DNA of 64,000 nt from Cyanidioschyzon merolae. Its lineage: Eukaryota. The notes under the pieces were generated by a model. That model was not told the origin of the DNA. It made no database searches and saw nothing but the letters and a program-made list of their open reading frames with translations. The stretch lies in assembly GCA_000091205.1 (NCBI GenBank), contig AP006492.2. The stretch is one strand, 5' to 3'. Shown piece by piece: positions 1 to 63,896 of the stretch. The translations under genes were made by a program, and so were the position numbers. Within the stretch, counting starts at the first letter, position 1; every line of letters starts with the position of its first letter.

Positions 1-566
1 TGTCTCCAGGATGGCCGCGTTGCCAATAGCGTTAGCGAGATGACACCATGGAGCGCCTCGCTCTGCTGAGCGGAAGGCTTTCAGTGCATTCGGTGCAAGC
101 GTCGTTCCCTGGTGCGCACGATAATCAGTCGCTCCGACCTCAAGGTGAAATTTTCGATGGACAACGCCCTGCTCGTGGCGACACGAAACCCTAATTGCGT
201 TGAGACGAAATTTGCTTGCGTTCCAGAGATTGTCGCCCAGGACTTTTTGCTGTTCAACCCAACGGGCTTCGATCGAGGCCTCCACGTGCTCCGAAGGATG
301 CGGGCGGCGCGCAAAATGATCGCCTTCCATATCAACCTCAAGCACCAGATCGACGCTAGCCCCGGCAACAGCACGAGAAAGACACGACCTTTGCAGTCCG
401 GGGGTACAGAACACGAGCAGCTCATACCGACCCTCTTTCTCCGCTCTGCGAACCAAGTCAACTACCCCCGGCTCCATACAGGCAAGGCTCTGAGCGCTCC
501 ACAAAGCGTCCCATACCTCCGATGCTCGGGTGCTTCAAGTGCACGCACACCGCCACCGCCACCGCC

Positions 567-1910
567 TTTTACACTCGAACGACGCCAGCGGTGTACAGTA
601 TTGGCGAGAAGCCCGCCTTGGACAAGAAGTTTTCAACTGCGGTGTAGACGCCTCCCAGCCCTTTTGCATCGGCCACCTACTACTGCTTCCAATCTTTTCT
701 CATATAATTCCACTTTGAGAGGTTGTCCAACAAAGTTCTCCCGTGTCTACTCTGGAGGTCTTTTCTCCAGCACCGCACATCTCCTTATATTGATTGCGGC
801 ATTAAAGTCTCGGTTCACAAACTCCATACGTTTCTTGCAATTGATTGTACTTCCTAATGCTAGTAGCCCTCGCACTTTCGCCCTCCTTTCCATTTGCTCG
901 TCTGTCAGCGGTCCGTACTTTGCGATTTCCTCAGGGCTCCTCTGGCACTTTTCCATCTCGACCCTCTGGAGTGTACAGCCCAGTTCATGGTGTGTATAGG
1001 ACGTTCGGAACTCGTCTACATGTATCGTGACGAAACGCCTTGCACACTCCTTATATGTTTTTGCCGTTGGAGCTGGCGTGGTCCCTTTTTGGGTCTTCCA
1101 GTGTCCCGCTCCGTACGCTACTACTAGCCTCTGATTTCCATCCTCCTTCAGGTCACTCAACTGATTGAAGAAAATCGCGAACGCCCGCTGCTTACCAAAA
1201 TACAAATTCATTCGCAAACGAGCCCACCGGGGCTTTGTATACCGCCCCCCACAGCGCATCCTAATGTGCCATGCGAAATTCCATGAATTTCCGAAAAGCT
1301 TCAAAGTCGGCTCCTCGGCTCGTCAGCTCGCTCAAAGCTTCAAGGTGATCTTTCATTCCTGAATTCCATTTCTCGGTTTTCTTCCTCGCATTCATGATTC
1401 CCGATTCCCGATTGTATCTCGCTGTCGAGAACCTCAAAAGACGCATGTCTTTCTGACGCAAGTTGCCGTCGGTACCATCCTCCGCGAGCTTGGGCACAAC
1501 GATGGTTACGATATATGTGTTTCCGGAGTCCGCGCCAACGACAAAGTCGTTCACATGCACTTTCTGTAGGGCAGGATCCGCCTTCTTCTCATCTTCATGC
1601 TTCGCCGCGTCAACGACAAACTCGTTATCCTGCACCTTCTGTGTCGCCGGATCCGCCTCCTTCTCATCTTTATGCATCGCCGCGCCAACGATAAAGCCGT
1701 TATCCTCCACCTTCTGCGTCACAGGACCCGCCTCCTTCTCATCTTTATGCATCGCCGCGCCAACGAATAGGTCGTTATCCTCTGCTTCCTGCGTCGCAGG
1801 ATCCGCCTCCTTCTCATATTCATGCTTCGTCGAGGGCGCAGCAGAGGGCGGGACTGGACGATCTTTCTTCAACCGCCGATAGTGTACACACAAGGCTACT
1901 CCATCGGTTT
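567..1910 (-). mobile_element. Fanzor/TnpB-like element, copy A. Only the 3' two-thirds survives (RuvC-I to RuvC-III plus a degraded right end). It is frameshifted and joins LINE copy 1 at about 1910.
   Basis: ORFs 1261..1893(-) and 747..1304(-) align with copies B, C and D. Motifs: VVGADSGNT (RuvC-I GxDxG-like) and FVNRDFNAAINI (TnpB RuvC-III). Right-end DNA is homologous to copy D down to about 567, with an internal deletion of about 46 bp relative to C. Confidence 0.6.
1545..1830 (-). repeat. 69-bp in-frame tandem repeat, about 4 units. It encodes acidic 23-aa units (ADPATQKVEDNxFVVxAAxHKDEKE) inside Fanzor copy A, immediately upstream of RuvC-I.
   Basis: Direct DNA periodicity is visible at 1561-1830 (gccgcgccaacga...cctccttctcatc repeated). 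The same repeat is in copy B at 35785-36065. Confidence 0.8.
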
Positions 1911-4900
1911 CCTGGTTCCGTGTCTACGTTTCCGTATTGCTGTTTGGACCGTTCGCTTGAGGCGGCGGGAGCCTTGTACATTCCTGGGGAACGATTGGGG
2001 AGCGTGTTGTCCCCTAAGAGGCGCTTCAGCCAAATCTGCGTCGATTTCATCCAAGTGTTCTTGCGGTGCGTTGGGGTCTGCATGGATATCCGATCGAACC
2101 AGGTGTTCATAGTTGGCCCTTTGCCCCATATGCGTGCCCGGCAACCTGCTGCTGTCGCTTCTGTCGAGGCTATTTGGAGTTCAAGTCCGAGTGCCAGCGC
2201 GGTGGTTGCTCTGCTCTACATTGAGCATCCAACAGCAACAACGAGTCACATTGCCATGTTGGCGGCTGTCTGCAGACGTGAGGCATTTGTGTGGTTCATG
2301 CCGCACCACTCAGCACCACAGGTCGCAGGCTGGATGATACACATCCTTAGTGCCCTGGTACGAATTGCTATGCAGATAGAGGGGTCGGATGGGAATGGAC
2401 GTGCGATCGCTGTACGTCTATGCATCTTGGCGATCATCTCGTCGACGTGTGCCTCTTCGTCGATCGTCGGCGTTAGACAGACCCCCGGGTAGCGATATTT
2501 TTCCACGATCGGAATTTCCTGGTTCTGCAACCGCCACGAGCGATTGCGAATGCTCTGCGAGTCTCCATGGATGACCATGGCGCCGCACTTCGATGCTCCT
2601 ATGCTCATCTCCCAGCGATCGGCCCAGTCGCTGACTTGTTCCATGCTACCCGCAAGCGTTTCCGGGGCGGGTGCCAACAGCACGACATCGTCCGCAACGA
2701 GACAGCCTGCGAGGCGGTTCCTACGTGAGGGCTCCTCATCGGGCATCTCCACAGTCTATCCACGGCACCTCAAGCCCGTATTGTCTGCAGTTGTTCAGCA
2801 GATCGTTGATGAAGATGTTGAAAAGGAGCGGGGATGCGCGCTCGCCCTGCCGCAGTCCACGGCGGATTCTTCTGGAAGGGGTTCTTGAGCGGTCGCCCAG
2901 TCGGATGCGCATCCATGAGTCTGCATAGAGCGCACGGAAGAATGCTAAGCACTTTCCGGAGACTTGGGCTCGTTCCATCTTCAGAAATGGAGCCTCGTGC
3001 GGGACCGTGTCAAAGGCCTCTTGGAAGTCGATGAAGCATACGTAAGCTGGTTGTTGGCCGCTAATGGAGCGACGTTGCACCCATCAATGAGGGTCAGGGC
3101 ATGGCTCATGCACTCCTCGTGGCTCCGGAATCCAGCCTGTTCTGGGGCGAAGAACTTGCGTTCCACGAGGCCTCTCTGAGTCCGGTTCGTGGGAATGGCG
3201 CAAAGTAGCTTCATGATTGACGGGATGAGGCGAATAGTCCGGTAGTTGTTCATGTCTGTGTTTGTGTACGTCGGAGTCCTTTTTGAGGATCGGTACGACC
3301 TCGGCAGTCCTCCATACATCCGGGATGTACGCCTCTTCGAACATGCGTTGGATGAGCTCCACAAGGCGTTTGCCTAAGCTTGTGTCAGGTTCATCTGGTA
3401 TCGATAGTGTCCCTCTTGTCCCGTCTTTTGGGATCACCAGTTTCATCCACTCCGCCGCGATACCGTCGATGCCAGGTGTTTTGCGGTTGCTTGAGCATAG
3501 CACGGTCCGAACAGATTCAGGCCAGAAGATTGGGTCGTTCCATTCCGGTACCGGTTCGAGGCGCGGTAGTTCTGCGGCATATTGGTGCCAATAGATTCTG
3601 TCTTGGCAGTGCCCAGTTGCGTCTTCATGCAGCTCTGTGCCGTGGTCCGTCCAGGCCTCATTCACTGAGGCACGCTCCGTCCTCAGCGCTTCCTCATAAA
3701 CGATTGGTGTGAGCCCCAGGCACTTTTTTGGTGGGTCCAGTCTCGATCGAATGTAGCGCCAGGTCTCATCTTCGTTGGTGCTCTCTAGCATAGATTTCGC
3801 TAGGGAGGCGATTTTGCGGTTTCGATCCTCTCGTTTGTCTTCTCTGGAAAGTTTCTTCTTTCTTTTGATAGCTTCTTCATGTTGCGCCTGTAGCGCCGTT
3901 AGGACTGCCTTCGCTTCCTTGTCTCCTGCGTTGGCGCGTATGGCGGTGTGGTTGACGATCTGATAGAGTCGGTGATGCTCGTCAATCCGGGTATTGGTAC
4001 GTCGTTTCAGGCACTGAGGTTTGCAACTGTTGCGTTCTGGTGCAAGCAGTCCCAGCTCTCCGGCAATCTTCTGATTCCCATCTACAAACTCTCGTGCCAA
4101 TTGGTCTAAAGATTTGTATGCACAACTTTTCGGATCTTCAGCGCTGTGAGTAGGTGACTCGGTTTGGCGACGGCTTTCTTGAGTTCCTGCTGGGGTGCTC
4201 TTTCGGGGACGACTTGTGATGGGCTCGCTGGAGCCCCCGCCTGTGGGCTCGTTCGGGAGTTCTTCTTCCTATTCTTCTGTTTTTCTCTTGTTGGTTTTCT
4301 TCTTCATCGGGTTCTTTCCTGAGCTACATTCTCTGGTTACTTTGCATCTAGGCGGATCATGAGGTTTCTGTGTCTCCTTCTCCGTGTCTGGTTGGGTCTC
4401 TTTTGCCTTTTGTACAGTCCTCGACTTGTATCAGTTCTTCATTACTGTACTGGTAATTCGATATCTCGTAGTTCAATACCGAGGCGATCCCACAAATATT
4501 CCATGATGCGAAACCTATCGAGTCGTAGCGCATAAGGGAATAGGAGTAACGCTGCGGTACTCGAGAGATACGTTGTCGATTGAGATGCACCCTCCACGGG
4601 GTGTTTGAGAGCACATGCCACCAGCGCCTCCTGCATTCCAGTCGTTCACTGAGTGTCTGCCGCAGCGCTAGCGTAGAATCAGATGTACATTAGTCAAGGT
4701 CGATTCGAATGCGACCTTTATCTTGCCCGACGCTTTAACCTCCCCTCAACAATTGGGAACAGTCTGCAAACCACCCTTTCAGCGGCTACGTATCCGCTCC
4801 CCAAACACATAGGCGGGCAAGCCGCTTATTCCAGCTTCGACCGCAAACATACTGCCAGCCGTCTTCAAAAGTCTCCGCCGAGACTATTTCCAAAGTTGAG

Positions 4901-5223
4901 GTAGGTAGCCAAGGTAGGAGGTAAAACGGAGCCCGAGTTCAAGGATGGATCCAAGATTTGCGCCCGAACCTGCAGCGTTGATTCGGGAGGGGCGGATGAC
5001 TAATCAGGATTTTCGTCAACATTTTCTGGTGCTGCTGCCGCCGCCCCTCCGTTCGTTGCGGTCAAGGTCCCTGGCGTGGGCTTCCTTCGCCGTCGCCCAA
5101 GCACCCCGCGTTAACCCACTTTCAGAGCTTCTCCGGAAAAACTAGACCTCTAAGGCGGGCGTGGTGTGTGGGTCTTTAAGATAGTTGTTCTTTAATAAAT
5201 AGTTTGCGACTAGTTTGTTTTGT
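1908..5223 (-). mobile_element. Non-LTR retrotransposon (LINE) copy 1. RT ORF2 is frameshifted, and the copy is 3'-truncated by about 960 bp relative to copy 2.
   Basis: Minus-strand ORFs 3084..4100, 2981..3364, 2736..3080 and 2246..2752 carry RT motifs: KTPGIDGI, YRTIRLIPSIMKLL, PEQAGFRSHEE, CFIDFQEAFDTVPHE, GLRQGxxASPLLFNIF, LVADDVVLLA. It is about 95% identical to 29967-34257. Its 5' terminus is identical to that of copy 2 (both end ...GTTTGTTTTGT). Confidence 0.8.
2246..4100 (-). pseudogene. LINE ORF2 reverse transcriptase, broken into three or more frames
   Basis: RT motifs 0 to C are spread over overlapping ORFs in different frames. No intact ORF spans the RT. Confidence 0.75.
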
Positions 5224-8699: not shown

Positions 8700-9276
8700 A
8701 TAGTGTTCGCGCTGAAAACGGGAAAGGTTTTCGGCATTTTCGAAAGGTTACCTTCTAGGCGGACGCTCCCGCGAACCGCTCGAGTCTACCAGGCTAGTGA
8801 ATCATCTACCTCTCCAATGGCAGGTGCTTTAGTGATATCTGAGCAGCAACTCGTCCGCTACGCAGTTCACTCTGGGACAAAGAGCGGGTAGATTGCGCCT
8901 GGACGTCGCTCTGGCCGCTGTAGACTCCCTGCATATTGCTTCGCGATGCGGCACGCAGTACGTCTCTCCGTACAGTTAGCAGGCTCCCAGAATGATTTTG
9001 TACTCCGACCCCATGTCGGGTGATCCACGCGTCGAGCCGGCTACCCCAGTGGTATGGCAGAGCCGTACTGTTTCCGTGAGGCATCGGCTCCAGCAGTATA
9101 AGCGCCAAGGCGGGCGCTCAAAGCAAGCAATCGCCGCGCGATTGAAGGTACAAAACGGCCAGCACCTCCGAGAGAAAATATGGGATATAGAGCTGGAAGT
9201 TAGGGCACAACATAAAGAGCGATTTCTCGTCTGCCAATAGCTATCCCGCAATCTGGAGTCCATAATCAATGAAAAT
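8700..9276 (+). repeat. Short LINE-3'-region-related repeat (SINE-like family), copy 1 of 3
   Basis: Shares the blocks ACCTTCTxGGCGGAxG and CCGACGCCCTCTGTGGT / CACACGATAG with the LINE 3' region and with the copies at 24700 and 49256. All three copies share the same head (TCGAAAGGTTACCTTCT) and the same tail (CCCGCAATCTGGxxTCCATxxxCAATG). Confidence 0.55.
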
Positions 9277-24699: not shown

Positions 24700-25275
24700 T
24701 ACTTACGATCGACGTTAAAAGAAGGGAAAACGTTTCCATATTGTCGAAAGTTTACGTTCTTGGTGGGATGTCCCGCGAGCCGGACGAGTCAGCCCGGCTA
24801 GTGCTTGATGCTTCCACCAGTGGCAGGTGCTGTGGCAAGACCTGCGCAGCTCGACCGCAACGCATTTCATTCTGAGACCTTGAGCAGGTTGCTACGTCTG
24901 GGCGTCGCCCTGGTCACAGCAGACTTGTCGTACATCGCTTCGCGCTGCCGCAGGCAGTACGTCTGTGTGCGCAACTTGCAGGCTCCCGGAATGATAATTA
25001 GCCGTGATTCCGTGTCAGGTGTAGGATTCCACGAGCCGACGCCCTCTGTGGTACGGCAAAGCCGTTCTATCCCTGTGCAGCTTCTGCTTCAGCGGTATAC
25101 GCGCTACGACGGGTGCAACAAGGCAGGCACTCGGCACACGATAGGACGTATGAAACGACCAGCATATCCGAGAGGAAGTATGGGTAATGGAACTTGAAGG
25201 TAGGTGGTTCATCATGGACGCTTTCCCGAAAGCCATTATCCATTCCGAATTCTGGTATCCATGGTCAATCTAAAT
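24700..25275 (+). repeat. Short LINE-3'-region-related repeat (SINE-like family), copy 2 of 3
   Basis: Same head, internal blocks and tail as the copies at 8700 and 49256. Confidence 0.55.
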
Positions 25276-29966: not shown

Positions 29967-32900
29967 TTTTTTCCATTGACAAAACGTTTACTTAGGCCAG
30001 CGTTCTCCGATTACGCGCATTTTTCTTTTCTTACTCTTTTTTTGTGTTTTTTTCAGAGCGAGTTGGGGTATCCATCAACCCCCTACCTCCATGTTACATT
30101 ACCTATACTTCGTCTCGGATATTCTGGTCGTTTCATACATCCTATCGTGTGTGCCTAGTACCTGCCGTTCCGTATCCTCCTTTGTGCCTGAACCGCTGGA
30201 GCAGATAGGTCATAGAGCTAGAACAGCTTTTCTATACCACAAAGGGCGTCGGCTCGAGGTGTGCTTCACCCGACGTAGAATCGGGTCTCGTCGTCAGTTT
30301 GTGCTCGGACAGTCTGCGGATGCAGGCTTGTCTTCGCTGCACGACACGCTGGAGAAACTTGGCTGTTAGGATATATCGTGGGAGCCGCCTCTCTCCTTCG
30401 TGATCATGCATGGAATGCGTTGTCGCCGGTTGGAAATGCGGATTTGTGCTTGACGCTCACCACAGTGGATAGGCGCAGAAAGCATACTAAACCCGTGTGC
30501 GCGTCCGATTCGCTAGACCTTCCGCTTGGAAGGTAGCACGTGAGTCTGTTGGCCACTCATGAGCGCTGAGGCTCGGTTAGCGGACCATCAGTTGCCAGTG
30601 CTGCAGTCAAAGTGAGTGTCCGGCCTTCGGCTATCATGGTGATGCCCAGCTGCTGCTGTCCTTCAAGGAGCTCGCTGCGCTCCTGCTTCCAGCGCGGGCA
30701 CTGTAAGCCTAAATATGTCAGCGTCTCGGGGGTCTCGTTTCCGCAGCAGGAACAGTGTGACTCCCAGTGCGATTCCAGTGTCCCTATATGGTTTAGAGCC
30801 GGTGCCGCTAGCCAGAAGCCACCAACGCGGATTTTGGCGAGCCACTGGGTACCTCGAGCAAGTCCTGGGAATTCCAGCGCCTCCCACCAGTACTTGCATG
30901 TGTATGCTAGGTTGTAGTTCCGGTATAGAGTCAAGCCGGCGTTACGGGCCCGACTGGTTCCGTGTCTACGTTCCCATATTGTTGTTTGGACCGTTCGCTT
31001 GAGGCAGCGGGAGCCTTGTACATTCCTGGGGAACGATTGGGGAGCGTGTTGTCTCCTAAGAGGCGCTTCAGCCAAATCTGCGTCGATTTCATCCAAGTGT
31101 TCTTGCGGTGCGTTGGGGTCTGCATGGATATCCGATCGAACCAGGTGTTCATAGTTGGCCCTTTGCCCCATATGCGTGCCCGGCAACCTGCTGCTGTCGC
31201 TTCTGTCGAGGCTATTTGGAGTTCAAGTCCGAGTGCCAGCGCGGTGGTTGCTCTGCTCTACATTGAGCATCCAACAGCAACAACGAGTCGCATTGCCATG
31301 TTGGCGGCTATCTGCAGACGTGAGGCATTTGTGTGGTTCATGCCGCACCACTCAACACCCCAGGTCGCAGGCTGGGTGATACACATCCTTAGTGCCCTCG
31401 TACGAATTGCTATGCGGATAGAGGGGTCGGATGGGAATGGACGTGCGATCGCTGTACGTCTATGCATCTTGGCGATTATCTCGTCGACGTGTGCCTTTTC
31501 GTCGAGCGTCGGCGTGAGACAGACCCTCCAGGTAGCGATATTTTTCCACGATCGGAATTTCCTGATTCTGCAACCGCCACGAGCGATTGCGAATGCGCTG
31601 CGAGTCTCCATGGATGAGCATGACGCCGCACTTCGATACTCCTATGCTCATCTCCGAGCGATCGGCCCGGGCGCTGACTTGTTCCATGCTACCCGCAAGC
31701 GTTTCCGGGGCGGGTGCCAACAGCACGGCTTCGTCCGCAACTAGACGGCCTGCGAGGCGGTTCCTATGTGAGGGCTCCTCACCGGGCATCTCCACAGTCT
31801 ATCCACGGCACCTCAAGCCCGTATTGTCTGCAGTTGTTAAGCAGATCGTTGATGAAGATGTTGAAAAGGAGCGGGGATGCGGGGTCGCCCTGCCGCAGTC
31901 CACGGCGGATTCTTCTGGAAGGGGTTCTTGAGCGGTCGCCCAGTCGGATGCGCATCCACGAGTCTGCATAGAGCGCACGGAAGAACGCCAAGCACTTTCC
32001 GGAGACTCCGGCTCGTTCCATCTTCAGAAATGGAGCCTCGTGCGGGACCGTGTCAAAGGCCTTTTGAAAGTCGGTGAAGCATACGTAAGCTGGTTGTTGG
32101 CCGCTAATGGAGCAACGTTGCACCCTTCAATGAGGGTCAGGGCATGGCTCATGCACTCCTCGTGGCTCCGGAATCCAGCCTGTTCTGGGACGAGGAACTT
32201 GCGTTCCTGGAGGCCTCTCTGAGTCCGGTTCGTGGGAATGGCGCAAAGTAGCTTCATGATTGACGGGATGAGGCGCATAGTCCGGTAGTTGTTCATGTCT
32301 GTGTGGGAGTCCTTTTTGAGGACCGGTACGACCTCGGCAGTCCTCCATACATCCGGGATGTACGCCTCTTCGAACATGCGTTGGATGAGCTCCACAAGGC
32401 GTTTGCCTAAGCTTGTGTCAGATTCATCTGGTATTGATGGTGTCCCTGTTGTCCCGTCTTTTGGGGTCACCAGTTTCATCCACTCCGCAGGGATACCGTC
32501 GATGCCAGGTGTTTTGCGGTTGCTTGAGCATAGCACGGTCCGAACAGATTCAGGCCAGAAGATTGGGTCGTTCCATTCCGGTACCGGTTCGAGGCGCGGT
32601 AGTTCTGCAGCATATTGGTGCCAATAGATTCTGTCTTGGCAGTGCCCAGTTGCGTCTTCATGCAGCTCTGTGCCGTGGTCCGTCCAGGCCTCATTCACTG
32701 AGGCACGCTCCGTCCTCAGCGCTTCCTCATAAACGACTGGTGTGAGCCCCAGGCACTTTTTTGGTGGGTCCAGTCTCGATCGAATGTAGCGCCAGGTCTC
32801 ATCTTCGTTGGTGCTCTCTAGCATAGATTTCGCCAGGGAGGCGATTTTGCGGGTTCGATCCTCTCGTTTGTCTTCTCTGGAAAGTTTCTTCTTTCTTTTG

Positions 32901-46614: not shown

Positions 46615-46708
46615 ATTGTAGCTGCGGAGGCGCGCTTTTCTGTTTCGATCCGTGTTGGTAACGCGTGTGCGTATGCGTGTGTGTTTGCACGTGCACGCCC
46701 GACACCGC

Positions 46709-49245
46709 CAAACGTCTTTCAAAAGAAAAACGGTGTCACCGGCGGTGTAGAGGCGGCGAAACCCGCCTTAGACTAGACGTCATTAACTAACTTGCAGACG
46801 CCTCCCCGTCTTTTTCGACCGGCCACCCACTACTGCTTCCCATTTCTTCTCATATAGTTCCACTTTCAGTGACTGTCCAACAAAGAGCTCTCTTGTCTGC
46901 TCTGGAGGTCTTGTCTCCAGCACCGCTCATTTCCTTATATTGATGGCAGCATTAAAGTCGCGGTTCACAAACTCCATACGTTTCTTGCCATCACTGGTTG
47001 CACTTACTAATGCAAAGAGTCCACGAACTTTCGCCCTCCTTTCCATTAGCTCCTCCGTCAGCGGTCCGTACTTTGCTATGTCCTTAGGGCTCCGCTGGCA
47101 CATTTTCATCTCGACCCTCTGAAGTTTACAACCCAGCTCATGGTGTGTATAAGATGTTCGGAACTCGTCTGCAGGTATTGTAACAAAACGCCGTGCACAC
47201 TCCTTGTACGTTCTCGTCGTTGGAGCTGGCGGAGTCCCTTTTTGGGTCATCCAGTGCACCGCTCTGTGCGCTACGACGAGCCTTTGAGTCTTGTCCTCTT
47301 TCGAGGCGCTCAACTCATGGAAAAAGTTCGCGAATGCACGCTGCTTTCCACAATACAGATTCATACACAGACGAGCTCACATGGGCTTTGTATACTCCTC
47401 CCACAGCGCCTCCCAATGAGCAACACGAACTTCCATGAATTTCCGAAAAGCTGTAAAGTCCGCTCCTCGGCTCGTCACCTCGCTCATAGCTTCCAGGTGC
47501 TCTTTCATTCCTGAATTCCACGTCTCAGTTTTCTTCCTCGCATTCATGGTTCCCGATTCCCGGTAATATCTCGCATTCGAGAGCTTGAACACACGCATGT
47601 CTTTCTGACGTAATTTGCCGTCAGTACCGTCTTCCGCACGCTTGGGTGCAGCAAGGGCTAGGATGTTCGTGCTCCCAGGGTCAAGGCCAACGACCAAGTC
47701 GTTCTCCTGCACCTCCTGCGTCGCAGGAACTGTCTCCTTGTTTTCTCCATGCTTCGTCACGGGCGAAGCCGAAGGCATGATAGGATGATCCGCATTCAAG
47801 CGCCGACACTGTAAGCATATGGATACCCCATCGATATGGATGATCCCTGTGAATGCTTTTTTCGTGCTCGTATTGAGACGTTTGAAATAGAAGATAGTCT
47901 TCCAATGAGTCTCCCGGTTATCGCCGGTGAACTCTATCTGCCTTACATCGAATTCCAGACTGATCTCCATCATGATGCCGTAAAGGACTCTGGAGTCGAT
48001 CGTCACGAAGCATGACTTGACGTTGCACAACTGAAAGACGTTGAAGCACTTGCCCTGAAGCGCAGTCTTCCGTTTCACCGACTCTTCACGTTTTCCCCGC
48101 TCAGCTCCATCTACGCCTTGCGTTCGAATTCTCGGTTCAGGAGCACGATATAGCGCAGGATGAGGGGATAACATCTTTTTTCATATCTGATACCCTCTCT
48201 GCTCGATCGACCTGCCCCAAGACTGCACGATGCTCTTTAATAGCCGGACGGATTACAGAAGCTTCGTTTCTGCTTCGGCGTGACGTCTTCTCGTCGAAAA
48301 ATTCGATCTGCTGTTCGTGCTGGCGATAAGTCCTGATTTCATTGATGCTAGCCCACATCCCCTGGCGAGAGAGGTCGGGGTTCAGCGCAAACATAGTGCG
48401 TATCATGAAACGTTCGAAGTTCACGATCATATGGTTCTTCAGGTCCGTGAGGTACTTAATTGCCCCGCAGGTGTATATATTCGAGTCACGCTCGTGTCGA
48501 GTGCCGTCGAAGCGGAATTTGGAGCGATTTGCATGGAGGGCATGCGGTCGCTCAGTTTCCGTCGACGTTTCCTCTGTGCCAAGCCTCAGGTGACGAATAA
48601 AGGCCTGGTCGAAAAATTCTTCCGGAACCTGGACTGTTTTCATGTGCGTCACGTCCCGAAACATCTCCTTCACCAAATGCACTAGCCATGACGAAGCCTT
48701 TATAAAACTCATAGAGTACGACTCGACGCAGTTTCTAATGGCGTCTCGTAACTTTTCCTCGTACGGATCCTTGATATGTCGACGAAGACAGGCTTTCGCC
48801 ACCATCTCGTCGTACTGTCATCTTGCTCGCAGCCTTTGTCGTAGGGCCCCCTGCCTCAGCTTTTTCGTCTTTTCCAGTTCCTTTTTGCTCTGGCTGCCGG
48901 CGACTACAGCCCTCAAAGATCCTCCACTTTCATTTCCATAACTCTTCTTTTTTTATGTTTTTGAGCAAAAACACACTTTGAACGCTTCTGCTATAAACCG
49001 CGAATAGTCACTTGAATCCACTCCCATGAGGGTCAAAGCACAATTGAACTGAAAAACTCTACCTTGCTACGACTTGAAAGCAAATACAACTTGCACGTTA
49101 GAACTACAGATCAACGAATAGTCAGGATTGCGTTCCCTTTCAACGGCGATACGCGCGTCGTGTCTCATGGATGCCAGAGCTCTCGGGTGCGCGTATCGGC
49201 CACGCTATGTAGAACAAAGAACAGAGACTCACTACTAACTCGCAA
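46709..49245 (-). mobile_element. Fanzor/TnpB-like OMEGA element, copy C. It is inverted relative to B. The ORF carries one frameshift and two in-frame TGA codons.
   Basis: ORFs 48137..48805(-), 47377..48174(-) and 46927..47364(-). The last 145 codons and 74 bp of the right end are (near-)identical to copy B. The left end aligns with B and D and ends at about 49245, next to the SINE-like repeat. Confidence 0.8.
46927..48805 (-). pseudogene. Fanzor ORF in copy C, with a frameshift near 48140-48175, an in-frame TGA at 47377 and an in-frame TGA at about 46842
   Basis: The same protein family as copy B. The N-terminal half is about 60-65% identical to B. RuvC-I is [16 protein letters not shown]. 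RuvC-III is FVNRDFNAAINI. Confidence 0.75.
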
Positions 49246-49255
49246 CGAGATAACA

Positions 49256-49865
49256 ATTTCTTTTCCCCACTATGATAAATGTTAAAAGTGGGCAACGGTT
49301 TCCGCACTGTCGAACGTTTACCTTCTCGGCGGAAGGTCCCACGAGCCAGACGAGTCTGCCGGGCTAGTGCTTCGTGCACAAGCGAGCGACGAGTTCAGTG
49401 GCGAGACCTGAGCAGCTCGTCCGCAACGTAGTTTATTCTGGGACTAGGATCGGGTAGCCTGCGTCTGGGCGTCACTCTTGTTGCAGTGGCCTCCTAGTAT
49501 ATCAATTCGGATTGCCGCCTGTACTAGGTCCGTCTGCGCTGCTTGCAGGCTCCCAGAATGATTATGAATCCCAGATCCCCATCAGGTGAAGCTTTCCTCG
49601 ATCCGACGCCCTCTGTGGTTTGGCAACGCCGTTCTGCCTCCCTGCAGCATCTGCCCAGAGGTTTAGGCGCCATCGCCGATGCTCAAAGCAGGCAATCGGC
49701 ACACGATAGAACATACGAAACGACCAGTACATCCGAGAGAAAGTATAAGTAATGGAACTAGAAGACAGGGCACAGCATAATAAGTGTCTTCCCGTTTGCC
49801 TGTGACGATCCCGCAATCTGGGATCCATGGACCATAGAGACAATGTACAACCATGAAAAATACGG
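49256..49865 (+). repeat. Short LINE-3'-region-related repeat (SINE-like family), copy 3 of 3
   Basis: Same head and tail as the copies at 8700 and 24700. It directly abuts the Fanzor C left end. Confidence 0.55.
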
Positions 49866-57195: not shown

Positions 57196-58405
57196 CTAGG
57201 TCGCGTAGAGTACTTCAGCAGGCGAGTAATCGTCAAAAGCTCGCGGTGAGCGCCGATGCTCCAGTCGCAAGTGCTGGTGCACGTCCGGCCATACCTGCAC
57301 ACAATTTGGTCCATACGCTTCAGCAACAGCATGAACAGCTGTGTAGTACACCTGGTCAGTACGTACGAAGCACTTTTCACGGTTCAGGTGCGGTTTGCAA
57401 ACGCGATCAACGGGAGCGGCAGCACCTAGCCATGGCCTCCGGAGCGACGTCTGAGAGGCTTCGCTCCAGTTCAGAGCCGGTTCAATAACGTCGTAACGCC
57501 ACCAGCAAGGCACTCGAACACTGCACAGGTTAATCGGTAGTTGTCTTTCAATGTCATCCAGCACATGCAGTACCGGGCTTTCCGGATTAGAGCGCAGCGC
57601 ATTTTCGCTCGGAACGATGTACTCGTCCACATCTGCGAAAAGAATCCATTTGAATATGCCGCGATTCCGCCACAAACAATCGTTCATGGCTGCAATCTGA
57701 ACATGATTCCAGTGCACGCCCTTTGGTGGACGAAATGGCCACGCTATGATCGATACATTCGCAGGCACATCGGCGAGTCGCTCCGTCAATTCATCCCTAA
57801 GCTCCATTATTCTGGAACCACAGGCATCCGGCTCATTGAGATAGATGAAAAAATTCCGAATGCCGACCCTTGTATGGTGTATGATCCACGACAGGAGGAG
57901 GCTCTGCGAAACGGAGCGTTCTACGTTGTTCGGCCGACGGTTCTCCTGAGACTCAGGGCGCAACCGCAGCATCGTCCAGGCAGCGAGATGTAACTGCTCG
58001 TTTGGAGCAGTTCCTTCGAAAGCATCGGCGTCTGGTTTGCACTGCAGAATGAGCACTTCGTTTTGCGGGTCTAGGCGTGGCGGGAGAACGCCACCGGGCG
58101 CACACCACGTCGCTGCTGCTTGCTCTACAGTGCGCCGGTCCAGGGGCCCGCGAGCGCTCAAGACCAGCGTTTCAAGACCGTCACGTGACCGGAACCTGTC
58201 AAGGACGCGTAGCTTCGCGTAGGAGGTGATTCCTGTAGTCTCCTGGGTAAAACGGCATGCTTCTAGTATGGAAAGCGTGCGCTCGAGAGCATCGCCCGAC
58301 CTGGAGTGAAGTAATACCAGGAGCGTCAGCAGCAGGACGCAACCGGACAGCAGTCTTCTCGGGAAACCTGTTCCAGACGCACCTCCGACACCAACAACAA
58401 ACATC
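57196..58405 (-). CDS. Glycosyltransferase family 92-like (DUF23) type II membrane protein
   Basis: Signal anchor MFVVGVGGASGTGFPRRLLSGCVLLLTLLVLL. GT92-like segments IHHTRVGIRNFFIYLNE and WILFADVDEYIVP (DxD-type). The track start at 58482 is TTG and lies inside the Fanzor D right end. The first ATG, at 58405..58403, lies within the last 8 nt of the Fanzor D right end. Confidence 0.55.
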
Positions 58406-61000
58406 TCCCAAAAGAAAAACGTTGTGACCGCCAGTGGTGTACAGTAGTGGCGAGTGCTCCGCCTTAGACTAGACGTCGCCAACTGACGAGCTGATGCCTT
58501 CCAGTCTTTTTCGACCGGCCACCTACAACGGCTTCCAATTTTTTCTCATATAATCCCACTTTGAGTGGTTGTCCCTTAAAATTCTCTCTTGACAGCTGTG
58601 GAGGTTTTTTCTCCATCACCGCGCATCTCCTGATATTGATGGCGGTGTTAAAATCTCGGTTCACAAACTCCATACGTTTCTCGCCATTGTTGGTACTCAC
58701 CAATGCAAGCAATCCTCGAACTTTCGCCATCCTTTCCATCTGCTCCTCCGTCAGCGGTCCGTATTTTCTTATCCTCAGGGCTCCTCATGCACATTCCTAC
58801 CTCCACTCTCTGAAGTAGACACCCCAGCTCATGGTGTGTATACGACGTTCGAAACTCACCTACAGGTATTGTTACAAAGCGCCTTGCGCACTCCTTATAC
58901 GCACTCGTCGTTGGAGCTGGCGTAGTTCCTTTTTGGGTCTTCCAGCGCCCTGCTCCGTATGCTACTACGAGCCTCTGACTTTTTTTATCCTCCTTCAAGG
59001 CGCTCATCTGATTGAAAACGTTCGCAAATGCCCGCTGCCTCTCTCCGTATAGACTCATACGCAGACGAGCCCACCGGGGCATGGTATACTCCTTCCACAG
59101 TGCGTCCCAATGGGCAACGCGAACTTCCATGAATTTCCGAAAAGCAGTAAAGTCCGCTCCTCAGCTCGTGATCTCCCTCATAGCTTCGAGGTGATCCTTC
59201 ATTCCTGCATTCCACCTCTCATTTGTCTTCCTTGCATTCATTATATCCGATTCTAGACAGTATCTCGCTCTCGAGAACCTCAAAAGACGCATGTCTTTCT
59301 GAGGTAAGTTGCCGTCAGTACCATCATCCGCACGCTTGGGAGCAGCGATGGTTATGATATTCGTATTCCCAGGGTCCGCGCCGACGACAAAGTCGTTATC
59401 TTGCACCTCCTGCGTCGCAAGATCCGCCTCCTTCTTTTCTGCATTCTTCGCCGCGCCAACGAAAGTCGTTATCCTGCACCTCCTGTGCCGCAGGATCCGC
59501 CTCCTTCTCACATTCATGGTTCGTCACGGGCGCAGCCGAGGGCGGGACTGGACGATCTCTCTTCAACCGCCGATAGTGTATACACAAGGCTACTCCATCG
59601 GTATCGATCATCCCAGTGAGTACCTTTTGTTTGCTCACCCTCAGACGTTTGAAATCGAAGATATTCTTCCAGAACGTCTCCCGGTTTTCACCGTAGAATT
59701 CCTCCCTGCTAACATCGAACTCCGGACTGATCTCCTTCATGATGCCATGAAGGACTGCGGAGTCGATACTCACAAAATGTGACTTGATGGTGCACATCGG
59801 AACGATGTAGAAGCGCTTACCCATCAGGAAAGCCTTCCGTCTGTCCCAGTCTTCAGTTTTCCCCACTCAGCTTCATTTCTGCCTTGCGTTCGAGTTCTCG
59901 GTCCAGAAACACGAAATAACATAGGATGAGGCGATAGTATCTTCCCTTATCTTTTTCAACGCTGATATCTTGTCTGTTGGATTCGGCAGCCCCATGACTG
60001 CACGGTGCTCTTGTATATCCGCACGGATGACGGAGACCTTATTCGTGCTCTGGTTTGACGCCTTCTTGTCGACAAATTCGACGTCATCTTCACGCTTGCG
60101 ATCGTTCGTGATGCCATTGATAATCGCTGATATTCCTTTGGGACAGATGCCCGGGTAGAGTGCAAACAAGGCGCGTATCATGTAACGTTCGAGGTTCACT
60201 GTCAAATTGTTCTTCAGGTTCGCGGTATACTTTATCGCCCCGTATATGTAAATACCCCGGTCACCGCTTTATCGATTACTCTCGAGGCGGAATTCCGCCA
60301 AGTTTTCGTGGAGGGCATGCACTGGCTCATTTTCCCCCGCGCTTACTCTGTACCAAGCATCAGCTGACGAATAAACGTCGCATCGAAAACGCCGTCCGGG
60401 AACCTCGACCGTTTCCATGTGCGTCACTTCGCGATACATCTCCCTCGCCAAATGCATCAGTCCTGACGAGGCCTTGACAATACTCTTGGAGTACGAGTCG
60501 ATACGTTTTTCGATAGCGTTTCGCTAGTGTTCCCTGTAAGGATCCTTGATATGTTTAAGAAGAAAGGTTTTCACCAGCATCTCGTTGTACGGTTGTAGTT
60601 CTTGCGGCCATCGACTTGGGATATCCCCTTTTTGCGTTTTCTTCTTATGCTGTTCTTCTGAACTCGGTACTGTTTTTTTCTTTTCTGGCAGCCAGCGACA
60701 CTGGGGCGTCAGGATCGCCGACTTGCTTTTTCATAACATCCTTTTTTTGTTTTTTTTTGAAAAGAACGCTCCATCAACGCCTCTGATATAGACCGCTAAA
60801 TATCACTTGGATAAACTAAATTGAGCGTTGAAACATAATTGACCTGAAAAGTGTACTCTGTTATGACTTTAACGAATATACAACTTGTAATTGAGAGCAA
60901 CACGCTCAAGATCGCGATCGCGTTTCCCTTCACCAACGACATGCGCGTGGTGTCTCATACCTGCCAGATATGGAGGTGCGCGTATCGACCGCTATAATCC
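58398..61000 (-). mobile_element. Fanzor/TnpB-like element, copy D. It is heavily frameshifted. Its left end is cut about 40 bp short by the 5' junction of LINE copy 3.
   Basis: ORFs 58464..58739, 58648..59130, 59161..59517, 59396..59866, 59873..60205 and 60269..60457 on the minus strand all align to copies B and C. Motifs: [16 protein letters not shown] and FVNRDFNTAINI. The right end is homologous to A, and more distantly to B and C. Confidence 0.7.
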
Positions 61001-62269
61001 CTTGGCACACGGACTCGAACTCCAAATACCCTCGACAGAAGGTATAGCAGCAGGCTGCCGGGTACGTATATGGGCCAAAGGGCCCGCCATGCGCACCTCT
61101 TTGAGTCGGATTTTCATGCAGACCCCTACGCACCTCAAGAACACTTGGACGAAATTGACGCAGATTGGGCTGAAGCGCCTATTAGACGAACATACGCTCC
61201 CCAATCGTTCCCCAGGAATGTACAAGGCTCCCGCCGCCTCAAGCGAACGGTCCAAACAACAATATGGGAACGTAGACACGGAACCAGTCGCGCCAGTAAC
61301 GCCGGCTTGATCCTATACCGGAGCTACAACCTAGCATACACATGCAAGTACTGGTGGGAGGCGCTGGAATTCCCGGGACTTGCTCGAGGTACCCAGTGGC
61401 TCGCCAAAATCCGCGTTGGTGGCTTCTGGCTAGCGGCACCGGCTCTAAGCCGTATAGGGACACTGGAATCGCACTGGGAGTCACACTGTCCCTGCTATCG
61501 AGACGATAACCCCGAGACGCTGACATATTTAGGCTTACAGTGCCCGCGCTGGAAGCAGGAGCGCAGCGAGCTCCTTGAAGGACAGCAGCAGCTGGGCATC
61601 ACCATGATATCCGAGGGCCGGACACTCACTTTGAGAGCAGCACTGGCAACTGATGGTCCGCTAACAGATCCTCAGCGCTCATTAGTGGCGAACAAACTCA
61701 CATGCTACCTTCCAAGCGGAAGGTCCAGCGGATCGGATGCGCACACGGGCCCAGTGCTCTCTGCGCCTACCTTCTGTATGGGTGTCAAACACAAACCCGC
61801 ATTGCCAACCGACGACAACGCATTCCATGCATGATCACGAAAGAGAGAGGCGGCTCCCACGATATATCCTAACAGTCAAGTTTCTCCAGCGTGTCGAGCA
61901 GCGAAGACAAGCCTGCATCCGCAGACTGTCCGAGCACACACTGACGACGAGACCCGATTCTACGTCGGGTGAAGCGCACCTTGAGCCGACGCCCTCTGGG
62001 GTATAGAAAAGCCGTTCTGTCTCCATGATGCATCTGTACCAAAGGTAAAGACGCTATTGCGGACAATTAGGACAGGTTCTGGGCACACGATAGGACGTAT
62101 GAGATGACCAGAATATCCGAGATGAAGGATAGGTAATTTGACGTGGAGGTACGGGGGTTGATGGATACCCCACCGCGCACTGTAAAAAAATAACGCAAAA
62201 AGTAAGAAAAGAAAAATGCGCACAATCGGAGAACGCTGGCCCAAGTAAACGCGTTGTCCGTGAAAAAGG
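61001..62269 (+). mobile_element. Non-LTR retrotransposon (LINE) copy 3, a 5'-truncated 3' fragment holding the C-terminus of ORF2 and the 3' UTR
   Basis: ORF 61070..61834(+) has the CCHC block HCPCYRDDNPETLTYLGLQCPRWKQER and is collinear with 29967-31190 of copy 2. It ends ...AAGTAAACGCGTTGTCCGTGAAAAAG at about 62269. Confidence 0.75.
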
Positions 62270-62462: not shown

Positions 62463-63896
62463 ATGATAGCGTTCGTTATTAATTCTGCAACGAAGGCCGC
62501 AGTTAGCCCATTAAAAGGACAAATTTGCCGTGGTCTTCCGAAAAACCCGAGCTTTGCGGCGTCTACCTGGCTAGGGCAGGCTGCGCTCTCGACGCGGCCG
62601 CGAAGTTCGCAAGGGCGTGGGCGCTCCGGTGTTCGCGAAAGCGCAGCTACGCGCGCACGCGCTCCTGTTTGTGTTCAAACAAGTGACGTTGCTATGCGGG
62701 TCCGTTCTATTCGTGATTTGCAGGACGCTGAAATCCGCGGAAAAAGAGTGTTTGTTCGTTCTGATTTGAACGTGCCCCTTGATGGAAAGCGAATCACAGA
62801 CGACACGCGGATTCGGGCGTCCGTCCCGACGATCAAGTACCTCGCAGACAAAGGAGCAAAGGTGATCGTCGTTTCGCACCTCGGGCGACCCAAGGGCGGC
62901 TTTGAGGACAAATATTCCTTGGCGCCAGTGGCGGAACGTCTCTCGGAACTCTTGGGAAAGAAGGTTCGCATGGCAAAGGATTGTATCGGGGACGCAGTGG
63001 CGACCGAAGTAGCGGCTATGTCCCCTGGAGATGTTGTTCTTCTGGAGAACGTCCGTTTTTACCCTGAGGAAGAAAAGAACGACCCCGATTTTGCGCGCAA
63101 GCTAGCGGCGAATGCGGACCTCTACGTGAATGATGCGTTCGGAACGGCGCACCGGGCGCACGCGTCCACAGAGGGCGTTACCGCTTTTCTCAAACCCGCA
63201 GTGGCGGGATTCCTCCTCGAAAAAGAGCTGGATTATTTGTCGAACGCAATTGAGAGCCCGAAGCGTCCATTTGCCGCTATCGTTGGAGGCTCCAAGGTCA
63301 GCACGAAAATCGCTGTTTTGGAGAAACTTCTTCAAAAATGCGATACAATCATCATCGGAGGAGGCATGGTATTTACGTTTCTCCGCGCGCGCGGTCTGAA
63401 GACTGGTAGCTCGCTTGTTGAGGAAGACAAAATTGAGTTGGCACGAGTCATCGAGGAAGAAGCGCGCAAGCGGGGAATCGAGCTCCTCCTACCCCTCGAT
63501 GTTGTCGTCGCCGATAAGTTCGCCAATGATGCGAATACAAAGGTCGTACCAGTGGAGGAGATTCCGGACGGATGGATGGGTCTTGATAACGGGCCAGAGA
63601 CGACAAGAATGATCCAGGAGAAGCTTCGCACGATGAAGACTGTTCTTTGGAACGGGCCCCTGGGCGTTTTCGAGATGCCGAACTTTGCCAAGGGCACCTT
63701 TGCCATTGCGGAGACTCTCGCGGAGATCACTCAGAACGGCTGCATCACGATTGTGGGAGGTGGCGATTCTGTTGCCGCTATGGAGCAATCAGGTAAGGCG
63801 GACAAGGTATCGCATATCTCAACCGGTGGTGGCGCTGCGTTGGAGTTAATCGAGGGGCGGGTATTGCCAGGTGTAGCGGCGCTCCAGAGGGCGTGA
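62463..63896 (+). CDS. PGK: Phosphoglycerate kinase with an N-terminal presequence of about 77 aa that is rich in R/S/A and looks like an organellar targeting peptide. The mature-like start is MRVRSIRD at 62694.
   Basis: [65 protein letters not shown]. The track start at 62412 is TTG. The first ATG is at 62463. Confidence 0.9.

What the first reader, a model, noticed from the sequence alone, without database searches (positions are those of the whole stretch)
58398..58410. GT92 glycosyltransferase start codon lies inside the terminal 8 nt of the Fanzor D right end
The only ATG that can start the GT92-like ORF (MFVVGVGG...) is at 58405-58403 on the minus strand. By alignment with copies C and B (caaacGtctTTc versus D caaacAtctCCc), nucleotides 58398-58409 are the last nucleotides of the Fanzor right end. 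Copies B and C have CGT, not CAT, at that spot, so the ATG is specific to D. Two explanations are possible. The element may have inserted just upstream of the gene, with a point change creating or replacing the initiator. Otherwise my boundary is off by a few bases. The predicted omega-RNA guide of copy D would be the first 20 nt of the GT92 coding and 5' region.
Basis: partly seen in the sequence, partly recalled or inferred. Interest (0 to 1): 0.5.

Follow-up and report, generated by a model that had tools for sequence, protein, structure and literature searches.

The report
Transposon end supplies a gene's start codon

Summary
The window is C. merolae chromosome 10. The ORF is CMJ303C, a GT92 protein of 402 aa. 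Its only usable ATG is at 58404-58402 on the minus strand, not 58405-58403.

Fifteen independent right ends (RE) of this Fanzor1 family (CMe-1A of Bao & Jurka 2013) show homology running through that ATG. It falls off only after ...GCGTTTGTT, which is 58396 in copy D. The other copies have GCG, ACG or GCA where D has ATG. A single C>T change at a CpG in a B/C-like ACG therefore made the initiator.

A 60%-identical ortholog in a related alga lies next to PGK in the same arrangement, has no element, and has a different N-terminus 12 codons longer. Everything from the ATG up to about 200 nt from PGK is repeat DNA. The element therefore probably also supplies the 5'UTR and promoter, which is inferred and not shown.

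D's own Fanzor ORF is a pseudogene, and no omega-RNA structure could be demonstrated, so the proposed guide remains an analogy.

Unexpectedly, 11 of the 15 REs lie within about 100 nt upstream of a co-oriented host ATG (P about 1e-13).

The parts
58402..58404 (-). ATG initiator of the GT92 gene CMJ303C. It lies 7-9 nt from the terminus of the Fanzor D right end. Other copies have GCG, ACG or GCA here.
57196..58404 (-). GT92 glycosyltransferase CDS (402 aa plus stop), a type II membrane protein with the anchor at residues about 17-33. It is identical to XP_005535002.1.
   Evidence: Strain variants show 5 synonymous and 3 non-synonymous codon changes.
58396..58463 (-). Non-coding 3' terminal part (RE) of Fanzor1 copy D, running from just after the stop of the last Fanzor ORF fragment to ...GGGAGATGTTTGTT. 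It contains the conserved CGCCACTACTGTACAC block and a predicted 9-bp terminal hairpin (CGUUUUUCU/GGGAGAUGU, dG -6.5). The ATG sits in the 3' arm of that hairpin.
58396..61002 (-). Fanzor1 (CMe-1A) copy D. It is 5'-truncated. Its ORF is split into 5 fragments in 3 frames, so it is a pseudogene. It carries two 75-nt coding repeats at 59376-59535.
58376..58395 (-). The 20 nt directly after the RE end (GTTGGTGTCGGAGGTGCGTC, GT92 codons 4-10). By analogy with TnpB and Fanzor this is where the omega-RNA guide would lie. It also resembles the flanks of other copies: GGTGTC is shared with C and L026, and a GGTG motif occurs in 8 of 15 copies.
   Evidence: The guide role is inferred, not shown.
61003..62262 (.). 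Another repeat block abutting D's truncated 5' end. Copies lie at 29969-31238 (inverted), 1912-2196 and L019 14878-15075. Its PGK-proximal part (61965-62262) resembles the 5' end of CMe-1A / TE-N2.
62463..63896 (+). Plastid-type phosphoglycerate kinase, the divergent neighbour. The first ATG of the ORF is at 62463. Only about 200 nt of unique DNA lies between it and the repeat block, and that stretch aligns with the ortholog's intergenic region.
46709..49828 (-). Fanzor1 copy C, full length at 3.1 kb. Its RE ends ...GAAAGACGTTTG at 46709. The p24/EMP24 gene starts about 91 nt downstream on the same strand.
34258..37052 (+). Fanzor1 copy B, 5'-truncated. Its RE ends ...GAAAGACGTTTGTT at 37052. 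Its 3' 1053 nt are 97% identical to C, while the rest is 74-78% identical.
561..1911 (-). Fanzor1 copy A, interrupted at 1911/1912 by a 3.3-kb repeat. Its RE flank is a (GGCGGT)n microsatellite. A 360-aa host ORF starts about 74-80 nt downstream on the same strand.

Best explanation
Copy D of the C. merolae Fanzor1 transposon family CMe-1A sits directly against the body of the GT92 gene CMJ303C, in the same orientation. It has replaced the gene's ancestral 5' end.

The gene now starts at an ATG 7-9 nt inside the transposon's right end. At least ATG TTT GTT, codons 1-3, are transposon sequence.

That ATG arose from the family's (G/A)CG by a C>T transition at a CpG. ACG, as in copies B and C, is the likely intermediate. 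ACG is a near-cognate start codon and could have allowed weak initiation before the change; this last point is inference.

All DNA from the ATG up to about 200 nt from the divergent PGK gene is repeat-derived. The 5'UTR and probably the promoter of the GT92 gene must therefore also lie in the transposon's 3' part. This is inferred and not shown.

The element itself is dead, because its Fanzor ORF is a pseudogene. If its right end is still transcribed as an omega/fRNA and used in trans, the guide would be GT92 codons 4-10. This is analogy only.
For: - Identity of gene and organism.
- Fanzor1 identity of the family:
  - a profile of full-length relatives hits Parasitella parasitica Fanzor1, PDB 9cf0, at E=5.2e-17 across DPGR, DEFRT and NRD..A..N;
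  - the motifs GLDPGSTN, DEFRTSYTH and NRDFNAAINI are present in the copies;
  - the family matches the published description of CMe-1A: about 3 kb, many copies at about 80% identity, and a 5' part that also occurs as a short solo element (PMC3627910).
- Boundary: 15 independent REs were aligned, and identity collapses after GCGTTTG(TT).
- The ATG is unique to D and is kept in all 7 strain contigs of this locus.
- There is no other in-frame ATG before codon 145.
- The ortholog (P0002, 60% identity) lies in the same PGK<->GT92 arrangement with a 450-650 nt spacer and no Fanzor. Alignment starts only at residue 39<->122, and its first ATG gives an N-tail 12 codons longer.
- The PGK-proximal 200 nt aligns between the species, and the C. 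merolae sequence then runs into repeats.
- The gene is still constrained: the ORF is intact, and strains differ by 5 synonymous and 3 non-synonymous codon changes.
Against: - No transcript or protein data were available, so use of this ATG and a start site inside the element are not shown.
- The ortholog is too diverged for a base-level empty site. The first ~38 residues (upstream of residue 39) do not align, so the ancestral start position is estimated and not observed.
- Weak similarity continues 11-20 nt past the end (P=0.006; GGTG motif P=1.3e-5, chosen post hoc). The exact terminus, and so how many codons are transposon-derived, is uncertain by about 3 to 9 codons.
- Whether the C>T change happened before or after insertion cannot be told.
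Confidence: 0.72

Rival explanations
1. Target-derived core. The element integrates by site-specific recombination, or with strong target preference, at ...GTTTGTT..GGTG-like sites. On this view the last few bases at the junction, possibly including the ATG, are host sequence that merely resembles the element end.
For: - Flanks of different copies resemble each other beyond the end. C, D and L026 share GGTGTC. B and L020 match at 12 of 16 positions. GGTG occurs in 8 of 15 flanks against a background of 0.088.
- The LE start (CGTTTTTCT..GACAAAACGTTTA) resembles the RE end (CGTTTTTCTTTTGAAAGGCGTTTG) as a direct repeat.
Against: - The AT of the ATG lies on the element side of the conserved GTTTGTT. 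It is flanked upstream by uninterrupted element homology.
- The ortholog has no ATG at the corresponding place.
- The motif statistics are post hoc.
Confidence: 0.1
2. The ATG is not the functional start. On this view CMJ303C lost its 5' end to the insertion and is silent or decaying, or it initiates elsewhere, for example at a non-AUG codon in the open frame upstream (58405-58482) or through a rare intron.
For: - The frame is open for 26 codons upstream of the ATG.
- There are no expression data.
- The ATG lies in the 3' arm of a predicted hairpin.
Against: - The 402-codon ORF is intact in 7 strain contigs, with a 5:3 ratio of synonymous to non-synonymous changes.
- The N-terminus from this ATG gives a typical short tail plus signal anchor.
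- The ATG and the 75 nt before it are almost invariant among strains.
- From my own knowledge, C. merolae has very few introns.
Confidence: 0.12
3. Coincidence. On this view the right end stops before the ATG, and the match of the last ~12 nt to copies B and C is chance.
For: D differs from them at 4 of the last 12 positions.
Against: Fifteen copies share the terminal block. D matches at 10 of 13 positions ungapped, directly after 16 identical bases, including the final GTTTGTT in register. The chance of this is below about 1e-3.
Confidence: 0.03

Closest known systems
CMe-1A, the Fanzor1 element family of Cyanidioschyzon merolae (Bao & Jurka 2013, Mob DNA 4:12; PMC3627910)
   Same: Same organism. 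Length is about 3 kb (copy C is 3.1 kb). There are many copies at about 80% identity. The 5' ~550-600 nt also occurs as a short solo element (TE-N2_CMe-like copies at 8720-9263 and 24714-25199). No obvious TIR or TSD was found. Most copies have broken ORFs.
   Different: The paper could not define termini or TSDs and says nothing about neighbouring genes. Here the 3' terminus is placed at ...GCGTTTG(TT). One copy is shown to provide a host start codon, and most copies abut host gene starts.
Transposon-derived start codons, first exons and promoters (TE exaptation, chimeric TE-gene transcripts); from my own knowledge
   Same: A host ORF begins in TE-homologous sequence. A point mutation in the TE created the ATG. 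The ancestral 5' end is gone.
   Different: The donor is the right end of an RNA-guided-nuclease (Fanzor) element in a very compact, almost intron-free genome. Expression from the TE is inferred, not shown.
TnpB/IS200-IS605 omega-RNA and Fanzor fRNA systems (Jiang et al. 2023, PMC10530073, read; Saito et al. 2023, Karvelis 2021, Altae-Tran 2021 and Meers 2023 from my own knowledge)
   Same: A TnpB-like RuvC nuclease gene sits at the 3' side of the element. A conserved non-coding stretch lies between its stop codon and the right end. In those systems the guide lies just past the right end.
   Different: No conserved RNA structure or covariation could be shown here. No transposase gene is present in the element. 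D's nuclease gene is dead. No TAM was identified.
Transposons that target gene 5' ends or promoters (Ty3, Tf1, P element, Mutator, mPing); from my own knowledge
   Same: Insertions are concentrated within about 100 nt upstream of coding starts.
   Different: Here the association is with one specific end and one orientation (11 of 15 copies). The elements are old and fixed, so selection after insertion cannot be separated from targeting.

Membership tests
Fanzor1 (eukaryotic TnpB-like RNA-guided nuclease) | Protein homologous to TnpB/Fanzor, with the split RuvC catalytic motifs (D, E, D) | tested here: met
   Direct Pfam and PDB searches with the copies were negative or weak: PF07282 at E=0.12. 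A profile of 32 full-length relatives found with the family profile (1141 hits) hits Parasitella parasitica Fanzor1 (9cf0) at E=5.2e-17, covering DPGR, DEFRT and NRD..A..N. The motifs GLDPGSTN, DEFRTSYTH and NRDFNAAINI are seen in the copies. Copy D itself is a pseudogene.
Fanzor1 (eukaryotic TnpB-like RNA-guided nuclease) | RuvC/TnpB fold | tested here: inconclusive
   The AlphaFold2 model built from a 22-sequence alignment had mean pLDDT 39.5. It was too poor to use for a fold search.
Fanzor1 (eukaryotic TnpB-like RNA-guided nuclease) | Conserved structured omega/fRNA overlapping the right end, with the guide in the flank | tested here: inconclusive
   RNAalifold on 12 and on 15 right ends gave covariation terms of +0.08 and -0.39 kcal/mol. 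A terminal hairpin is predicted in most copies, but its z-scores are only -0.4 to -2.1. There was no Rfam match.
Fanzor1 (eukaryotic TnpB-like RNA-guided nuclease) | Target-adjacent motif (TAM) next to the left end | tested here: inconclusive
   The left ends of 6 full-length or solo copies start in a T-run (..GTTTTTC..GACAAAACGTTTA). The boundary is not sharp and no flank motif stands out.
CMe-1A element family (Bao & Jurka 2013) | About 3 kb, many diverged copies in C. merolae, 5' ~635 bp shared with the short element TE-N2_CMe, no TIR/TSD | tested here: met
   Copy C is 3.1 kb. Four copies lie in the window and 11 more in related contigs, at 70-85% identity. Solo 5' parts lie at 8720-9263 and 24714-25199. 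No TSD or TIR was seen. The Repbase consensus was not available for direct comparison.
IS200/IS605-type TnpA+TnpB insertion sequence | A Y1 (TnpA) or serine-recombinase transposase gene in the element | tested here: not met
   The ORFs of B, C and D are all Fanzor fragments, and the remaining ~600 nt at the 5' end is non-coding.
Transposon-derived start codon (exaptation) | The initiator lies within sequence homologous to the transposon | tested here: met
Transposon-derived start codon (exaptation) | An ortholog without the transposon has a different 5' end | tested here: met
   P0002 / L005 has the same PGK-GT92 synteny, no RE match, a different N-terminus and a first ATG 12 codons further upstream.
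Transposon-derived start codon (exaptation) | The ATG is actually used, and the transcript starts inside the transposon | not testable with these tools
   Support is indirect only. It is the only ATG before the membrane anchor. RefSeq annotates it. It is conserved in 7 strain contigs, and the ORF appears to be under constraint.
Glycosyltransferase family 92 | Match to Pfam PF01697 above the gathering score | tested here: met
   56 bits against a cut-off of 23, E=5.8e-15, residues 169-369.

The most novel reading that the evidence does not exclude
The GT92 case is the extreme of a family-wide rule. CMe-1A Fanzor1 elements are either targeted to, or only survive at, the 5' ends of host genes in sense orientation. 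Their right end would then act as the host gene's promoter and leader, and each copy's omega-RNA guide would be the 5'UTR or first codons of a host gene. Similar flanks within subsets of copies (GGTGTC; TTTYCAGGRGTG) would reflect guide- or target-directed choice of new sites, or 3' transduction.
Probability: 0.3. Interest if true: 0.7.

Novelty: new member of a known kind. Interest (0 to 1): 0.42.

Why it matters
On its own, this is a clean and datable example of a gene rebuilding its 5' end from a transposon. One CpG transition turned ACG into ATG in the last bases of a Fanzor element, in a genome so compact that losing a promoter cannot easily be buffered.

It also fixes the 3' terminus of CMe-1A, which the original description left open.

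The wider pattern matters more. Eleven of 15 right ends lie within about 100 nt upstream of a co-oriented host ATG. If the pattern holds genome-wide, it links an RNA-guided-nuclease transposon to gene starts and makes two open questions testable in a tractable alga. The first is what mobilises transposase-less Fanzor1 elements. The second is whether their guides, which would be host 5' ends, have any role.

Tried and rejected
- Direct Pfam and PDB sequence searches with the window's Fanzor fragments, and with a 22-sequence family profile, gave nothing usable. Only the profile of distant full-length relatives reached Fanzor1.
- The AlphaFold2 model was too poor (pLDDT 39.5), so no fold search was run.
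- RNAalifold, RNAfold and Rfam on the right end gave no convincing omega-RNA.
- The single metagenome DNA scan mostly returned the same four loci from sister strains, plus 2 new copies.
- No strain with an empty GT92 site was found. All 7 contigs of the locus carry the element.
- I tried to rebuild the pre-insertion site from D's left flank. This failed because D is 5'-truncated against another repeat at 61003.
- I tried to align the ortholog's N-terminal coding DNA to codons 1-20. There is no reliable similarity.
- The assembly GCA_041825655.1 could not be tied to a named species.
- I considered that B and C are recent transposition copies whose divergence point defines the end. This was rejected as stated, because only their 3' 1053 nt are 97% identical and the rest is 74-78%. 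The pattern looks like gene conversion. The end was instead defined from 15 copies.
Full report
**What is at the coordinates**

On the + strand, 58398-58409 reads caaacatctccc. The minus-strand ORF 57196..58482 is open from a TTG, but its only ATG before codon 145 is CAT at 58402-58404.

From that ATG the product is 402 aa. It matches Pfam GT92 (PF01697, E=5.8e-15, 56 bits against a cut-off of 23). It has a short tail followed by a hydrophobic anchor (MFVVGVGGASGTGFPRRLLSGCVLLLTLLVLLHS), as expected for a type II Golgi glycosyltransferase.

An exact-sequence look-up identifies the protein as CMJ303C / XP_005535002.1 of Cyanidioschyzon merolae 10D, annotated from the same ATG. The window is therefore C. 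merolae chromosome 10.

**The element**

The window holds four copies of one repeat: A at 561-1911(-), B at about 34258-37052(+), C at 46709-49828(-) and D at 58396-61002(-).

Their ORF fragments carry GLDPGSTN, DEFRTSYTH and NRDFNAAINI. Direct Pfam and PDB searches were uninformative. A family profile found 1141 relatives among 1.8 billion representatives. A profile of 32 full-length relatives then hit Parasitella parasitica Fanzor1 (PDB 9cf0) at E=5.2e-17 across the RuvC motifs.

The properties match CMe-1A, the Fanzor1 family that Bao & Jurka described in this alga. That family has about 150 copies at about 80% identity and is about 3 kb long. Its 5' ~635 bp is shared with the short element TE-N2_CMe, no TIRs were found, and its termini and TSDs were left undetermined (PMC3627910). 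Solo 5' parts are present here at 8720-9263 and 24714-25199.

Copy D is dead. Its Fanzor region is split into five ORF fragments in three frames.

**Where the right end stops**

I collected 15 independent right ends:
- the 4 copies in the window;
- 11 from hot-spring metagenome contigs of C. merolae-like algae (L008a, L008b, L017, L019, L020, L022a, L022b, L023, L024, L026, L029).

All share the block CGCCACTACTGTACAC. About 30-40 nt later they share a terminal ...GAAAGGCGTTTG.

In the six copies of D's subfamily, column identity is about 1.0 through GTTTG. TT follows in five of the six. Identity is then 0.38 for 11 nt (null 0.255, P=0.006) and 0.23 further out.

D reads ...CAACGTTTTTCTTTTGGGAGATGTTTGTT|GTTGGTG. 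The end is therefore at 58396, and ATG TTT GTT are element bases. A second subfamily ends ...GGCGTTGAT in two copies with different flanks (L008a, L024), which agrees with this register.

**How the ATG arose**

At the triplet that is ATG in D:
- nine copies have GCG or a variant of it;
- B and C have ACG;
- L022a has GCA, the same CpG mutated on the other strand.

One C>T transition at a CpG converts the B/C-like ACG to ATG. All seven strain contigs of the D locus, at 98-99% identity, keep ATG and nearly all of the 75 nt before it. Among these strains the GT92 codons differ by 5 synonymous and 3 non-synonymous changes, which suggests a gene still under constraint.

The ATG lies in the 3' arm of a predicted 9-bp terminal hairpin. 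The change leaves a G·U pair. The hairpin's z-scores are weak, so I treat it as a note only.

**The ortholog without the element**

The only other homolog found is P0002, at 60% identity, from assembly GCA_041825655.1 and two sequencing runs. Its locus has the same neighbours: PGK divergent, then a MAGE-like gene, an FAA hydrolase and a Surp gene. The PGK-GT92 spacer there is 450-650 nt, and nothing in it matches the right end.

BLASTP aligns the two proteins only from residue 39<->122. The ortholog's first ATG (M72 of the called ORF, whose own start is GTG) gives an N-tail 12 codons longer, with no similarity to MFVVGV....

The PGK-proximal ~200 nt align between the species. After that, the C. 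merolae sequence runs straight into a left-end-like repeat at about 62262 (TTTTTCACGGACAACGCG). It then continues through another repeat block (61003-62262) into D.

Nothing corresponds to the ortholog's remaining ~450 nt or its first 12 codons. Together with the absence of any ATG downstream of the element, this indicates that the element replaced the ancestral 5' end. It did not simply land in front of an intact gene. It follows that the present 5'UTR and promoter must lie in transposon DNA. This is an inference; I had no expression data.

**The omega-RNA guide**

In TnpB and Fanzor systems the guide lies just beyond the right end (PMC10530073). By analogy, D's guide would be 58395-58376, which is GT92 codons 4-10.

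I could not support this analogy further:
- RNAalifold on 12 and on 15 right ends gave covariation terms of +0.08 and -0.39 kcal/mol.
- Rfam gave nothing.
- D has no working nuclease gene.

**An unexpected wider pattern**

In 11 of the 15 copies, a long ATG-initiated host ORF on the same strand begins between -7 and about +96 nt from the right end. Offsets from the end of the CTGTACAC anchor are given below; the right end lies at anchor +30 to +41.

| Copy | Host gene | ATG offset from anchor |
|---|---|---|
| D | GT92 | +32 |
| L023 | TPT transporter | +48 |
| L020 | hydrolase | +49 |
| L022a | Macro domain | +67 |
| L029 | ribosomal S21 | +81 |
| L019 | RF-1 | +92 |
| A | 360-aa ORF | +113 |
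| L017 | 388-aa ORF | +118 |
| C | p24/EMP24 | +130 |
| L008a | FtsZ | +134 |
| L022b | DEAD_2 helicase | +135 |

The four exceptions are as follows. Two copies abut the stop codon of a convergent gene (L024 Cpn60, L026 Myb). Two have no nearby gene (B, L008b).

Only 3.6% of strand-positions in these loci have such an ATG within -10 to +100 nt. That gives P about 1.6e-13, or 9e-9 with a generous 10% background.

Left ends are not similarly close to genes. The flanks also resemble each other more than chance would give. C, D and L026 share GGTGTC. B and L020 match at 12 of 16 positions. GGTG occurs within 24 nt in 8 of 15 flanks against 8.8% expected (P=1.3e-5, a post hoc choice of motif).

These flank similarities have three possible sources: a longer and variable terminus, target preference, or carry-over of flank from progenitor copies. 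I cannot separate them here. The consequence for this finding is that the transposon-derived part of the GT92 N-terminus is at least 3 codons and could be about 9.

**Verdict**

The boundary is sound.

As a phenomenon it is a new example of a known kind, transposon co-option for a start codon, in a known element family. The family-wide adjacency of right ends to host gene starts is the part that deserves a genome-wide follow-up.

Noticed in passing
15 right ends: window A, B, C, D; L008 (2), L017, L019, L020, L022 (2), L023, L024, L026, L029: Eleven of 15 independent CMe-1A right ends lie -7 to about +96 nt upstream of a co-oriented host ATG. The host genes are GT92, p24, FtsZ, RF-1, Macro, TPT, DEAD_2 helicase, a hydrolase, S21 and two unknowns. 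Two more copies abut the stop codon of a convergent gene. Background is 3.6%, giving P about 1e-13. Left ends show no such proximity.
   Followed up: partly
window 58376-58395, 46685-46708, 37053-37070, 530-560; L020, L022, L024 and L026 flanks: Flanks just past the right end resemble each other in subsets. GGTGTC is shared by C, D and L026. TTTYCAGGRGTG is shared by B and L020. GGTG occurs in 8 of 15 flanks. Possible causes are target preference, a longer variable terminus, or 3' transduction.
   Followed up: partly
window 35998-37050 vs 46709-47761: Copies B and C are 97% identical only over their 3' 1053 nt, ending exactly at the right-end terminus. Their 5' parts are 74-78% identical. This looks like a gene-conversion tract. 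Both share an in-frame stop at a conserved Trp (…TKPV* / …TKPM*).
   Followed up: no
L004 1-190 (JGI 3300051449) and protein P0009: Two metagenome contigs show a ~124-nt tandem duplication. It is made of the last 58 nt of D's right end plus the first 66 nt of the GT92 CDS, and the junction differs by one TGC between the two contigs. It is either a real strain polymorphism or an assembly artefact at a contig end.
   Followed up: partly
window 1530-1841, 35773-36072, 59376-59535, 47682-47768: The Fanzor ORF contains a variable number (1 to 4) of 75-nt, 25-aa tandem repeats (…[21 protein letters not shown]…). They lie immediately before the RuvC-I motif VVG.DPG.
   Followed up: no
window 49760-49830, 62240-62265, 9200-9263, 25150-25212; L019 ~7700-7764; L023 ~3215-3275: The left end starts with ..(C)GTTTTTC..GACAAAACGTTTA. 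It resembles the right-end terminus CGTTTTTCTTTTGAAAGGCGTTTG as a direct repeat, not an inverted one.
   Followed up: no
window 1912-5223 vs 30954-34257: A 3.3-kb repeat at 96-99% identity lies next to two Fanzor copies. It interrupts copy A at 1911/1912 and abuts the truncated 5' end of copy B at 34257. A related block at 61003-62267 (inverted copy at 29969-31238) abuts copy D.
   Followed up: no
window 8720-9263 and 24714-25212: These are solo copies of the 5' ~550 nt of the Fanzor element. They are probably TE-N2_CMe of Bao & Jurka.
   Followed up: partly
window 58396-58430 and equivalent positions in other copies: A hairpin of 7-9 bp is predicted at the very end of the right end (CGUUUUUC-UUUU-GAAAGGCG). 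A second subfamily has a different stem (UUCGA-CUU-UCGAA) at the same place. Stability z-scores are weak (-0.4 to -2.1).
   Followed up: partly
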